DNA from: a virus
DNA length: 37,954 nucleotides
Virus genome (UHGV): UHGV-0114795
Direction: 5' to 3' (one strand)
In this document: one piece after another, positions 33,764 through 34,248 of the stretch
Layout: the number at the start of each line of letters is the position of its first letter
Position numbering within the stretch: the stretch's first letter is position 1
Position numbers and translations under genes: made by a program
Notes under the pieces: generated by a model
What the model saw: only the letters and a program-made list of their open reading frames with translations
Told to the model about the DNA's origin: nothing
Database searches by the model: none

Positions 33764-34060
33764 ATGGAATTTAAAGGTACTAAAGGTAAGTGGGAAATAA
33801 TGATGGATGGCGATGAGATTAAAATCATCCAGGCAGACTCACTTGAAAATGGCGCAGGCTGGCGTTCGTATATTGCAATCTGTGAGGAAGTTCAATGCAT
33901 TGAAGATGCCAATCTAATAGCGGCAGCACCTGACCTTCTCGAAGCACTTCAGTTATTACTTAAGCAAACCAAAAATAGAACAACGACAACATATCCAGAA
34001 TGGTATGGAGCTGTTAATAAGGCTCTCGAAGCTATCAAAAAAGCCATAGGTGATGAATAA
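33764..34060 (+). CDS. Hypothetical protein (98 aa)
   Basis: AGAGG SD 5 nt upstream; no homologue recalled. Confidence 0.5.
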   Translation: MEFKGTKGKWEIMMDGDEIKIIQADSLENGAGWRSYIAICEEVQCIEDANLIAAAPDLLEALQLLLKQTKNRTTTTYPEWYGAVNKALEAIKKAIGDE

Positions 34061-34248
34061 TGAAAGTAAAAATAACTGCTTCTAATACCAGTTTTGTTAG
34101 TGTTGGTGATATTACAGAAGTAATAACAAACCATGATGGAACACAAGTTATGTGGTCTGATTTCTGTAAAAGATATGAGCGAGTTAGTTGGTGTAAACTC
34201 GTATGGGGCGTCGAATACGAAGAATTACCTGAAATGCATGACGAATAA
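34060..34248 (+). CDS. Hypothetical protein (62 aa)
   Basis: TAATG stop-start overlap with the upstream 98-aa gene, indicating translational coupling. Confidence 0.45.
   Translation: MKVKITASNTSFVSVGDITEVITNHDGTQVMWSDFCKRYERVSWCKLVWGVEYEELPEMHDE

What the first reader, a model, noticed from the sequence alone, without database searches (positions are those of the whole stretch)
33764..34248. Translationally coupled pair of unknown early genes between ral and cIII
A 98-aa and a 62-aa ORF share a TAATG junction and occupy the position where lambda carries ea10/sieB-type accessory functions. Neither is recognisable to me. A coupled small pair in an early-left accessory slot is a reasonable candidate for an anti-defence or host-takeover function, or a toxin-antitoxin-like pair.
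Basis: inference. Interest (0 to 1): 0.45.

Follow-up and report, generated by a model that had tools for sequence, protein, structure and literature searches.

The report
Two swappable small phage early genes
The two overlapping small genes are real, conserved phage accessory genes of unknown function that sit in a cassette-swapping slot of the early-left operon, but they are two independently shuffled modules already catalogued in databases, not a toxin-antitoxin-like pair.

Summary
ORF1 (33764-34060, 98 aa) and ORF2 (34060-34248, 62 aa) share a TAATG stop/start junction between ral and cIII. Both are under purifying selection (dN/dS 0.09-0.36).

Both belong to catalogued families of unknown function. 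ORF1 is Pfam PF27050 'Phage_P22_Y8K6' (P22 orf78 / PBSX XkdD family, phrog_1273). ORF2 is phrog_10407, a confidently modelled SH3-like beta-barrel. Its best structural match is Gp54 of phage Bas11, a non-essential CapRel trigger of unknown function, but there is no sequence homology.

They are not an obligate pair:
- The same junction joins ORF1-type genes to at least three unrelated downstream genes.
- ORF2 follows several different upstream genes, and occurs without any ORF1-type neighbour in T4-like and other large phage contigs.
- In 5426 E. coli genomes, ORF1 occurs in 106, ORF2 in 94, and the joined block in 60.

Relative to lambda, the 489-bp block is a clean insertion between ral and the conserved PreS sRNA/tL2a element. 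ea10 occupies a different slot.

No toxin-antitoxin, defence or anti-defence family matches, no own promoter stands out, and the genes are absent from true plasmids. The most likely reading is two independent, N-dependent, non-enzymatic accessory proteins. An anti-defence or host-takeover role is plausible but untested. Interest is low to moderate.

The parts
33524..33724 (+). ral (antirestriction), the upstream neighbour that defines the slot
   Evidence: Pfam PF11058 Ral E 1.7e-48, full length; phrog_1055
33713..33734 (+). Terminator-like hairpin plus T-run overlapping the ral stop. It is the left conserved flank of the insertion slot (...GGCCTTTATTTTTGGCATAAACAACAGA|).
   Evidence: Terminator scan. 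The flank is conserved in lambda DE3, VT2-Sakai and APC_JM3.2, and the insertion breakpoint lies right after AACAGA.
33754..33758 (+). Shine-Dalgarno AGAGG for ORF1, 5 nt before the ATG
   Evidence: Read from the sequence
33764..34060 (+). ORF1, 98 aa. Member of PF27050 Phage_P22_Y8K6 / phrog_1273 (P22 orf78, PBSX XkdD family). It has a conserved N-terminal EFKGTxGxW, a hypervariable middle, a conserved EDAxLIAAAPDLLEAL helix and a C-terminal AIxKA(L/I)G helix.
   Evidence: AF2 model pLDDT 75, helical hairpin 44-70/77-95. dN/dS 0.09-0.36.
34048..34062 (+). Junction: SD AGGTGA (34048-34053) inside the last codons of ORF1 (I-G-D-E), then TAATG (34058-34062), the stop/start overlap. The same purine-rich SD plus overlapping stop/start junction precedes alternative downstream cassettes in related phages.
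   Evidence: Sequence. Junction strings in five related loci. Alternative cassettes at the same junction.
34060..34248 (+). ORF2, 62 aa, phrog_10407. Small SH3-like beta-barrel (five strands plus one helix) with a conserved long beta1-beta2 loop (S8, N9, F12, G16).
34249..34286 (+). Stem-loop directly after the ORF2 stop. It is the right conserved flank of the slot. Three alleles with different stem sequences occur at the same place in related loci.
   Evidence: RNAfold -20 to -22 kcal/mol; alleles listed. Present in lambda DE3 and VT2-Sakai right after ral.
34280..34367 (+). Inferred orthologue of the lambda Hfq-dependent sRNA LPR1/PreS, ending in the tL2a intrinsic terminator (GCCCTC-CTATGT-GAGGGC-T6, 34344-34367). 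Context only, not part of the two genes. The 5' end is estimated from the published ~88-nt length.
   Evidence: Terminator scan. 96-99% identity to the ral-ea10 intergenic block of lambdoid phages. Location and features of LPR1/PreS come from bioRxiv 10.1101/2024.10.31.621285.
34434..34604 (+). cIII, the downstream neighbour
   Evidence: phrog_550 'CIII', E 1e-22. Homologous position to lambda cIII in the alignment.

Best explanation
ORF1 and ORF2 are two independent, exchangeable accessory genes. They occupy a two-position cassette slot in the N-dependent early-left (pL) operon, between ral and the conserved PreS sRNA/tL2a terminator block.

Position A holds a PF27050 (P22 Y8K6/XkdD) protein. 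Position B holds one of several unrelated small proteins, here a 62-aa SH3-like beta-barrel.

The last codons of the position-A gene (...A-L/I-G-D/E-E/K) encode the Shine-Dalgarno for whatever follows and end in an overlapping stop/start (TAATG). That short conserved joint does two things. It couples translation of B to A, and it is where homologous recombination swaps cassettes. The coupling is therefore a property of the slot, not a sign of a two-component system.

Shown: gene reality, family membership, cassette reassortment, insertion boundaries, the fold of ORF2, and the absence of catalytic-looking invariant residues in ORF1.

Inferred: both proteins are made as delayed-early products after N antitermination. 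Each acts alone as a small non-enzymatic binder of a host or host-defence protein. ORF1 would do this through a conserved helical frame carrying a hypervariable specificity insert. ORF2 would do it through its conserved beta1-beta2 loop.
For: - Both genes are real and constrained: profile hits and dN/dS 0.09-0.36.
- ORF1 is PF27050 / phrog_1273. A family member lies downstream of ral, before gene 17 and c3, in the P22-like phage ST104, annotated 'similar to P22 orf78'. The family has more than 2700 clusters and reaches Bacteroidota and Firmicutes.
- Across that spread only the N-terminal motif, the LIAAAPELLEAL helix and the C-terminal helix stay conserved. The middle varies in sequence and length, and E47/D48 are not conserved.
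- No neighbour family recurs among 16 distant loci.
- Reassortment downstream of ORF1: in 79 ORF1-type loci, about 27 are followed by the ORF2 type, about 32 by an unrelated 52-aa MNKKY type, about 15 by an unrelated 66-70-aa MCEFY type, plus others. Nearly all start at or just before the ORF1 stop.
- Reassortment upstream of ORF2: several PF27050 variants with different N-terminal halves, a 44-aa protein that keeps only the ALGGE/ALGDK end, or unrelated genes in large phage contigs. In RB49-like T4 phages the ORF2 domain is the C-terminus of a 119-144-aa protein in a block of small early genes.
- In 5426 E. coli genomes, ORF1 occurs in 106, ORF2 in 94, and the joined block in 60.
- The APC_JM3.2/mEp043 DNA match stops within 15 nt of the junction and resumes after the cassette.
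- Against lambda and VT2-Sakai the 489-bp block is a clean insertion between conserved non-coding flanks. HK97 carries an unrelated gp45 in the slot.
- No + strand promoter-like site lies between N and ORF2, and promoter-like matches in the region do not exceed chance. Terminator-like hairpins lie on both sides. GC is 34-42% against 52-57% in the N region.
- ORF2 is a confident small barrel whose nearest solved structure is a non-essential small phage protein that binds a host defence sensor.
Against: - No experiment or homology gives the function of either protein, so the 'binder of a host or defence protein' step is inference from size, fold and context.
- In lambdoid contigs ORF2 is nearly always preceded by a gene ending in the same ALGxE-TAATG joint, and most of those are PF27050 members. 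A functional dependence of position B on position A cannot be ruled out by sequence alone.
- The ORF1 model is only moderately confident (pLDDT 75, N-terminal half 54-69).
- The 80-locus samples are the best hits to the query, and the two viral samples share some contigs, so the counts are not unbiased frequencies.
Confidence: 0.6

Rival explanations
1. The two positions form a functional two-part system. The conserved PF27050 protein would be a common partner (chaperone, adaptor or regulator, loosely analogous to aca next to variable acr genes) for interchangeable downstream effectors such as ORF2.
For: In lambdoid contigs ORF2 is almost always directly preceded, through the same overlapping junction, by a PF27050 member or a protein sharing its C-terminal end. 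All three alternative downstream genes are translationally coupled to it. The C-terminal helix of the family is conserved while the rest varies.
Against: PF27050 genes in Bacteroidota, Firmicutes, Morganella and Vequintavirinae have no recurring neighbour. ORF2 relatives exist without any PF27050 neighbour in T4-like and other large phage contigs, and as a fusion to an unrelated N-terminal domain. ORF1 has no DNA-binding or known chaperone domain. Conservation of the C-terminal codons is equally explained by their role as Shine-Dalgarno and recombination joint.
Confidence: 0.15
2. The pair is a toxin-antitoxin-like module, with one protein toxic and the other neutralising it.
For: Two small overlapping genes, both acidic and both of unknown function.
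Against: No match to any toxin, antitoxin or defence model in Pfam, NCBIfam or PADLOC. The single weak PADLOC hit is chance, seen in 1 of 40 family members. The two genes assort independently. No own promoter exceeds chance, and neither protein matches a DNA-binding family. The genes are absent from true plasmids and sit inside a repressor-controlled lytic operon.
Confidence: 0.03
3. Prophage-expressed exclusion or defence genes (sieB/rex-like) that protect the lysogen against other phages.
For: The neighbourhood in related phages carries sieB and other exclusion genes. The cassette has low GC and is bracketed by terminator-like hairpins, as morons are.
Against: No + strand promoter-like site lies upstream of the cassette, and matches in the region do not exceed chance. 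The genes are on the pL strand, downstream of N and ral, so CI should keep them silent in a lysogen. No PADLOC hit. Relatives also occur in strictly virulent phages: RB49-like phages for ORF2 and Vequintavirinae for ORF1.
Confidence: 0.07

Closest known systems
Pfam PF27050 Phage_P22_Y8K6 (P22 orf78, the 8.6-kDa protein between ral and gene 17; B. subtilis PBSX XkdD; RefSeq 'XkdD/Y8K6 family phage-associated protein'; phrog_1273)
   Same: ORF1 matches phrog_1273 over its full length, and proteins 91-96% identical carry PF27050. It keeps the family motifs. It lies downstream of ral, as its relative ORF18 does in the P22-like phage ST104.
   Different: Nothing beyond allele-level differences. 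The middle and N-terminal sub-domain are one of several swapped variants. The family itself has no known function.
Gp54 of Escherichia phage Bas11 (PDB 9AXB), the small non-essential protein that directly activates the CapRel-SJ46 fused toxin-antitoxin defence (Zhang et al., Nature 2024, PMC11578894)
Other occupants of the ral-cIII variable stretch in lambdoid phages (lambda ea10, HK97 gp45, P22 gene 17)
   Same: Non-essential early-left genes bounded by highly conserved non-coding sequence. They are expressed from pL after N antitermination.
   Different: They are unrelated in sequence. ea10 occupies a separate slot downstream of tL2a, which is empty here. The ORF1-ORF2 slot is empty in lambda.
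Variable-effector plus conserved-neighbour loci such as acr-aca anti-CRISPR operons (architecture only; comparison from general knowledge)
   Same: One conserved small gene sits next to a position where unrelated small genes replace one another.
   Different: The conserved gene here is upstream. It matches no DNA-binding family in Pfam or NCBIfam and has no demonstrated regulatory role. No anti-defence activity is shown for any occupant.
Type II toxin-antitoxin modules
   Same: Two small overlapping genes.
   Different: No family match, no obligate co-occurrence, no own promoter, and not found on plasmids.

Membership tests
PF27050 Phage_P22_Y8K6 / phrog_1273 (ORF1) | Full-length match to the family profile | tested here: met
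   phrog_1273 E 5.5e-32, residues 1-97 on profile 4-100/103. All 22 diverse relatives, including Bacteroidota and Firmicutes, hit the same PHROG. PF27050 is precomputed on proteins 91-96% identical. The local Pfam copy lacks this model, hence no hit.
PF27050 Phage_P22_Y8K6 / phrog_1273 (ORF1) | Conserved motifs: N-terminal (E)FKGTxGxW, central NAxLIAAAP(D/E)LLEAL, C-terminal AIxKALG | tested here: met
   Invariant or near-invariant columns in alignments A1 and A7. The N-terminal motif was also the search pattern for the genome and viral scans, so its invariance there is partly by selection.
PF27050 Phage_P22_Y8K6 / phrog_1273 (ORF1) | Position in the early-left operon downstream of ral, as in P22-like phages | tested here: met
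   ST104 ORF18 ('similar to P22 orf78') lies downstream of ral, separated from it by orf19, and upstream of gene 17 and c3. In the window the order is ral, ORF1, ORF2, cIII.
phrog_10407 (ORF2) | Full-length match to the family profile | tested here: met
   E 6.2e-46, 1-62 on 1-62/62. It also matches the C-terminal 54 residues of phrog_16117, 144 aa. An exhaustive search finds only 14 representative clusters, seven of them true full-length relatives.
Gp54-Bas11-like CapRel trigger | Sequence or profile homology to Gp54 | tested here: not met
   hhalign probability 0.14%. The PDB profile search does not retrieve 9AXB even at E 10.
Gp54-Bas11-like CapRel trigger | Same fold and topology (six-stranded small barrel with a long beta1-beta2 loop) | tested here: inconclusive
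Gp54-Bas11-like CapRel trigger | Binds and activates CapRel-SJ46 | not testable with these tools
   Needs co-expression toxicity and binding assays as in PMC11578894.
Type II toxin-antitoxin pair | Either protein matches a known toxin or antitoxin family | tested here: not met
   Pfam 0 families. NCBIfam has nothing above noise. PADLOC gives one chance hit, seen in 1 of 40 family members.
Type II toxin-antitoxin pair | The two genes co-occur as a unit | tested here: not met
   At least three unrelated partners follow ORF1, and several different partners precede ORF2. In E. coli genomes the counts are 106, 94 and 60.
Type II toxin-antitoxin pair | Own autoregulated promoter with a DNA-binding antitoxin | tested here: not met
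   No + strand promoter-like site lies between 32780 and 34607, and the counts equal chance. Neither protein matches any DNA-binding family in Pfam or NCBIfam.
Type II toxin-antitoxin pair | One product toxic, rescued by the other | not testable with these tools
   Requires expression in E. coli.
Moron (autonomous promoter-gene-terminator insert expressed in the lysogen) | Own promoter upstream of the insert | tested here: not met
Moron (autonomous promoter-gene-terminator insert expressed in the lysogen) | Discrete insertion relative to related phages, atypical GC, terminator downstream | tested here: met
   Clean 489-bp insertion against lambda and VT2-Sakai. GC 34-42%. Terminator at 34344-34361.
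Known anti-restriction / anti-defence families covered by Pfam and PHROGs (Ral, ArdA, Ocr and others) | Profile match | tested here: not met
   No hit for ORF1 or ORF2. Dedicated anti-defence HMM sets were not available.

The most novel reading that the evidence does not exclude
The slot may be an anti-defence hotspot. Interchangeable small proteins, including the ORF2 SH3-like barrel, would each inhibit or decoy a different host immunity sensor. ORF2-type barrels would engage zinc-finger-like sensor domains in the way Gp54-Bas11 engages CapRel. The conserved PF27050 gene would supply the shared translational and recombinational docking joint, and possibly a helper function.
Probability: 0.12. 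Interest if true: 0.65.

Novelty: already known. Interest (0 to 1): 0.22.

Why it matters
As it stands this is routine. Near-identical copies of both genes are already annotated in about a hundred complete E. coli genomes. One of them sits in a curated Pfam family of unknown function.

The useful outcome is negative and organisational:
- The toxin-antitoxin reading can be dropped.
- The coupling is explained as a shared cassette joint.
- The slot is mapped precisely against lambda, between ral and the PreS sRNA/tL2a.

If either protein were shown to block or trigger a defence system, a very widespread phage family would gain a function. PF27050 has more than 2700 clusters, from Enterobacteria to Bacteroidota. 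The ral-PreS slot would also become a convenient place to mine for counter-defence genes.

Tried and rejected
- **Direct family searches.** The local Pfam copy, NCBIfam and PADLOC gave nothing for either protein. The local Pfam copy predates PF27050.
- **PADLOC PDC-M33B.** The weak hit for ORF1 (E 0.009) was rejected because only 1 of 40 family members reproduces it.
- **PDB sequence and profile searches.** Only noise.
- **Large repetitive hits for ORF2.** The 306-1364-aa hits in the exhaustive ORF2 search are repeat artefacts, not relatives.
- **Foldseek against viral models.** Only uncharacterised proteins. The afdb50 library was unavailable.
- **Gp54-Bas11 homology.** Tested and rejected at sequence level.
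- **Neighbourhood analysis.** Sixteen distant PF27050 loci showed no recurrent partner.
- **Rfam.** No hit in 31000-36000.
- **Literature.** Searches for XkdD, Y8K6, PF27050, phrog_1273, orf78, the LIAAAPELLEAL motif and the RefSeq accessions found no functional study.
- **Plasmid searches.** Only a mislabelled chromosome and a P22-like element.

Full report
**What is there.** The window is a lambdoid/P22-like E. coli phage. Its best DNA matches are phages Louie, Dewey, Gally and Kapi1. It is oriented so that the early-left pL operon runs on the + strand.
- A CI-like repressor lies at 31925-32626, followed by a terminator-like hairpin at 32657-32678 and a promoter-like site at 32752-32780.
- N is at 33119-33445 and ral at 33524-33724 (Pfam Ral, E 1.7e-48).
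- Then come ORF1 (33764-34060, 98 aa) and ORF2 (34060-34248, 62 aa).
- Downstream are two terminator-like hairpins, cIII (34434-34604), a kil-like peptide, an unknown 103-aa gene and RecT.
- The junction is GAT GAA TAA|TG. Stop and start share one A at 34060, and an AGGTGA Shine-Dalgarno lies 6 nt upstream of the ATG, inside ORF1's last codons.

**Are they genes?** Yes.
- ORF1 matches phrog_1273 over its whole length (E 5.5e-32). ORF2 matches phrog_10407 (E 6.2e-46).
- Against homologues of 47-80% amino-acid identity, dN/dS is 0.09-0.36 for ORF1 and 0.10-0.28 for ORF2. Synonymous sites are near saturation.
- Near-identical copies are in complete E. coli genomes: 106 for ORF1 and 94 for ORF2, of 5426. 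Both are annotated as hypothetical proteins.
- The exact ORF2 protein is indexed in 1264 blocks of the public assembly collection.

**ORF1.** The large protein search returns 182 relatives, nearly all carrying the precomputed Pfam domain PF27050.
- The context tool prints the domain name as Phage_P22_Y8K6.
- RefSeq calls a close homologue 'XkdD/Y8K6 family phage-associated protein'.
- In the P22-like phage ST104 the family member ORF18 is annotated 'similar to bacteriophage P22 orf78'. It lies downstream of ral (after orf19) and upstream of gene 17 and c3.
A species-representative genome scan finds relatives at 30-38% identity in Chryseobacterium, Flavobacterium, Sphingobacterium, Roseivirga, Eubacteriaceae, Breznakia, Morganella and Pantoea. 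All of them hit phrog_1273.
- Virulent Vequintavirinae phages carry a stand-alone ~85-aa relative.
- Across this spread only three elements stay fixed: EFKGTxGxW at the N-terminus, NAxLIAAAP(D/E)LLEAL, and a C-terminal AIxKALG helix. The segment between the first two varies in both sequence and length, and the acidic pair E47/D48 is not conserved.
- Even among close relatives the N-terminal half exists in at least three unrelated versions between the same conserved ends.
- No neighbour family recurs around 16 distant members.

I read ORF1 as a non-enzymatic scaffold with a variable insert. Its function is unknown, as for the whole family. Zaworski et al. (PMC8022706) state that the majority of P22-like early-left genes have no known function.

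**ORF2.** The family is small. There are 21 clusters in the indexed search. An exhaustive search gives 14 representative clusters, of which seven are true relatives and the large repetitive hits are artefacts.
- Relatives occur in lambdoid prophages, in RB49-like T4 phages, in Salmonella SP069-type phages, in Aeromonas phages and in large viral contigs. In RB49-like phages the domain is the C-terminal 54 residues of a 119-144-aa protein, inside a run of small hypothetical early genes.
- There is no Pfam, NCBIfam, PADLOC or PDB sequence match.
- The AlphaFold model is confident (pLDDT 93.5). It has five strands and one short helix, with a 10-residue beta1-beta2 loop that carries the invariant positions S8, N9, F12 and G16.
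- Gp54-Bas11 is a 66-aa non-essential protein of unknown function. It binds the antitoxin domain of the CapRel-SJ46 defence protein and activates it. Its authors suggest it may inhibit another defence system (PMC11578894).
- I fetched the Gp54 sequence from MZ501085.1 and compared it with the ORF2 family profile. hhalign gives 0.14% probability. The resemblance is fold-level only, and the described six-stranded topology is not reproduced.
- Foldseek against viral models finds only uncharacterised small phage proteins.

**Is it a pair?** No.
- In 79 viral-contig loci with an ORF1-type gene, the next gene is the ORF2 type in about 27, an unrelated 52-aa protein (MNKKYIVEVIERETKE...) in about 32, an unrelated 66-70-aa protein (MCEFYEADIKRPEM...ADAMLKARE) in about 15, and something else in a few. 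Nearly all start at or just before the ORF1 stop.
- Measured between the conserved junction and a conserved downstream anchor, the cassettes have fixed lengths: 227, 195 and 239 bp.
- Conversely, in lambdoid contigs ORF2 is preceded by PF27050 genes with different N-terminal halves, or by a 44-aa protein that shares only the terminal ALGGE/ALGDK. In large phage contigs it is preceded by unrelated, non-overlapping genes.
- The junction always keeps a purine-rich GG(T/A/G)GA motif 6-9 nt before the downstream ATG.
- The DNA match to APC_JM3.2 and mEp043 ends within 15 nt of the junction and resumes after the cassette.
- In E. coli genomes only 60 carry the joined block, against 106 with ORF1 and 94 with ORF2.

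The coupled joint is therefore a shared docking point for alternative cassettes, not a mark of a two-component system.

**Where the slot is.** I aligned the window with lambda DE3, VT2-Sakai and APC_JM3.2.
- In lambda and VT2-Sakai, the hairpin at the end of ral (...GGCCTTTATTTTTGGCATAAAYAACAGA) is followed almost directly by a conserved stem-loop (CTGTGTATTCATTC-CAAC-GAGTGAATACACGG), then the conserved stretch GAGCAATGTCGCTCGTAACTAAACAGGAGCC..., then the terminator GCCCTCC-N5-GAGGGC-T run.
- The window has the 489-bp ORF1-ORF2 block inserted exactly between AACAGA and that stem-loop.
- Lambda's ea10 lies after the terminator, in a second slot that is empty in the window.
- HK97 has an unrelated gp45 in the first slot and annotates the same terminator.
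- The conserved non-coding block is 95-99% identical in 326 phage records.
- By position and features it corresponds to the lambda Hfq-dependent sRNA LPR1/PreS. That sRNA lies between ea10 and ral, its 3' end is tL2a, it is ~88 nt and processed to ~68 nt, and it up-regulates host dnaN (bioRxiv 10.1101/2024.10.31.621285). This identification is my inference from the alignment, because the paper's text does not print the sequence.
- No + strand promoter-like site lies between pL and ORF2, and promoter-like matches in the region equal the shuffled expectation. Terminator-like hairpins precede and follow the cassette. Expression should therefore depend on N antitermination, making these delayed-early lytic genes (inference).
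- GC is 34-42%, against 52-57% around N.

**Toxin-antitoxin or defence readings.**
- No toxin, antitoxin or defence model matches. The one weak PADLOC hit is not reproduced by family members.
- Both proteins are acidic by residue count, about net -6 and -5 (counted from the sequences). Neither matches a DNA-binding family.
- They assort independently and are absent from genuine plasmids.
- They lie in a repressor-controlled operon and also occur in virulent phages. A lysogen-protecting exclusion role is therefore unlikely too.

**Verdict.** These are two independent, catalogued accessory genes of unknown function in a cassette-swapping slot. My best mechanistic guess is that each is a small non-enzymatic binder of a host or host-defence protein made early in lytic growth. 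For ORF2 this is supported only by fold analogy to Gp54-Bas11, and for both genes by context next to ral. The pair or toxin-antitoxin interpretation is not supported. Novelty is low: identical genes are annotated in RefSeq, and one family is in Pfam. Interest is low to moderate, mainly because PF27050 is very widespread and still has no function.

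Noticed in passing
window 34280-34367 (terminator stem 34344-34361, T-run 34362-34367): The highly conserved non-coding block right after ORF2 is 96-99% identical to the lambda and Stx-phage sequence between ral and ea10. It appears to be the orthologue of the recently described Hfq-dependent lambda sRNA LPR1/PreS, whose 3' end is tL2a and which up-regulates host dnaN. Rfam has no family for it (no hit).
   Followed up: partly
window 34249-34286; L001, L027, L075 and others at the homologous place: A stem-loop immediately 5' of the PreS-like block exists in three alleles with completely different stem sequences but the same hairpin shape. The stems are CTGTGTATTCATTC/GAGTGAATACACGG, CTATAGCAGATT/AGTCTGCTATG and CTAATGACCATT/AGTGGTCATTG. 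The allele is independent of which small ORF precedes it. The structure looks selected, possibly as a processing or stabilising element for the sRNA or the upstream mRNA.
   Followed up: partly
window 33455-33541: A 28-aa extremely acidic ORF (MEEEFEEFEEHPQDVMEQYQDYPYDYDY) lies between N and ral and overlaps the ral start. It corresponds in position to lambda 'orf28' (lambdap47) as annotated in phage DE3. Its function is unknown.
   Followed up: no
window 34362-34385 versus L173 (lambda DE3) 1020-1470: Compared with lambda and VT2-Sakai, the ea10 cassette is missing. The window passes directly from the tL2a T-run into ...GCATACCAATAACGCTTCACTCGAGGCG, which follows ea10 in lambda. A second cassette slot is therefore bounded by conserved non-coding sequence.
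   Followed up: partly
ORF1 family alignment (A1); loci L084-L148: ORF1-family genes are themselves mosaic. At least three unrelated N-terminal halves lie between the same conserved FKGTxGxW and (E/D)DAxLIAAAPDLLEAL frames, and there are several alternative middle segments before the conserved C-terminal helix. A 44-aa protein (MNAVEFTKWMAEQDIT...ALGGE) shares only the last few codons and the TAATG joint, and replaces ORF1 upstream of ORF2 in about 11 contigs.
   Followed up: partly
L149 (Klebsiella phage OY979426.1) 2333-3004: The CDS annotated 'nucleotide pyrophosphohydrolase' is flagged pseudo and is full of stops in its stated frame. A clean ~85-aa PF27050-like ORF (MAKDTWEVFQDDDEIKV...) lies inside it in another frame. 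This looks like an annotation artefact in the public record.
   Followed up: yes
L001 2375-2998 (APC_JM3.2) and L176 1544-2167: In some relatives a 207-aa protein sits between ral (or its equivalent) and the ORF1-type gene. It carries the Pfam Nmad5 (nucleotide-modification-associated) domain in L176, and the equally long protein at the same place in APC_JM3.2 is annotated 'Smchd1'. This is another alternative occupant of the same variable stretch.
   Followed up: no
window 34604-34708 and 34686-34997: Downstream of cIII there is a 34-aa kil-position peptide (phrog_17766, with weaker matches to a PHROG annotated 'recombinase' and to the Arf recombination cofactor) and a 103-aa protein of unknown function (phrog_3486, E 3.7e-59). 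The two overlap each other just before RecT.
   Followed up: no
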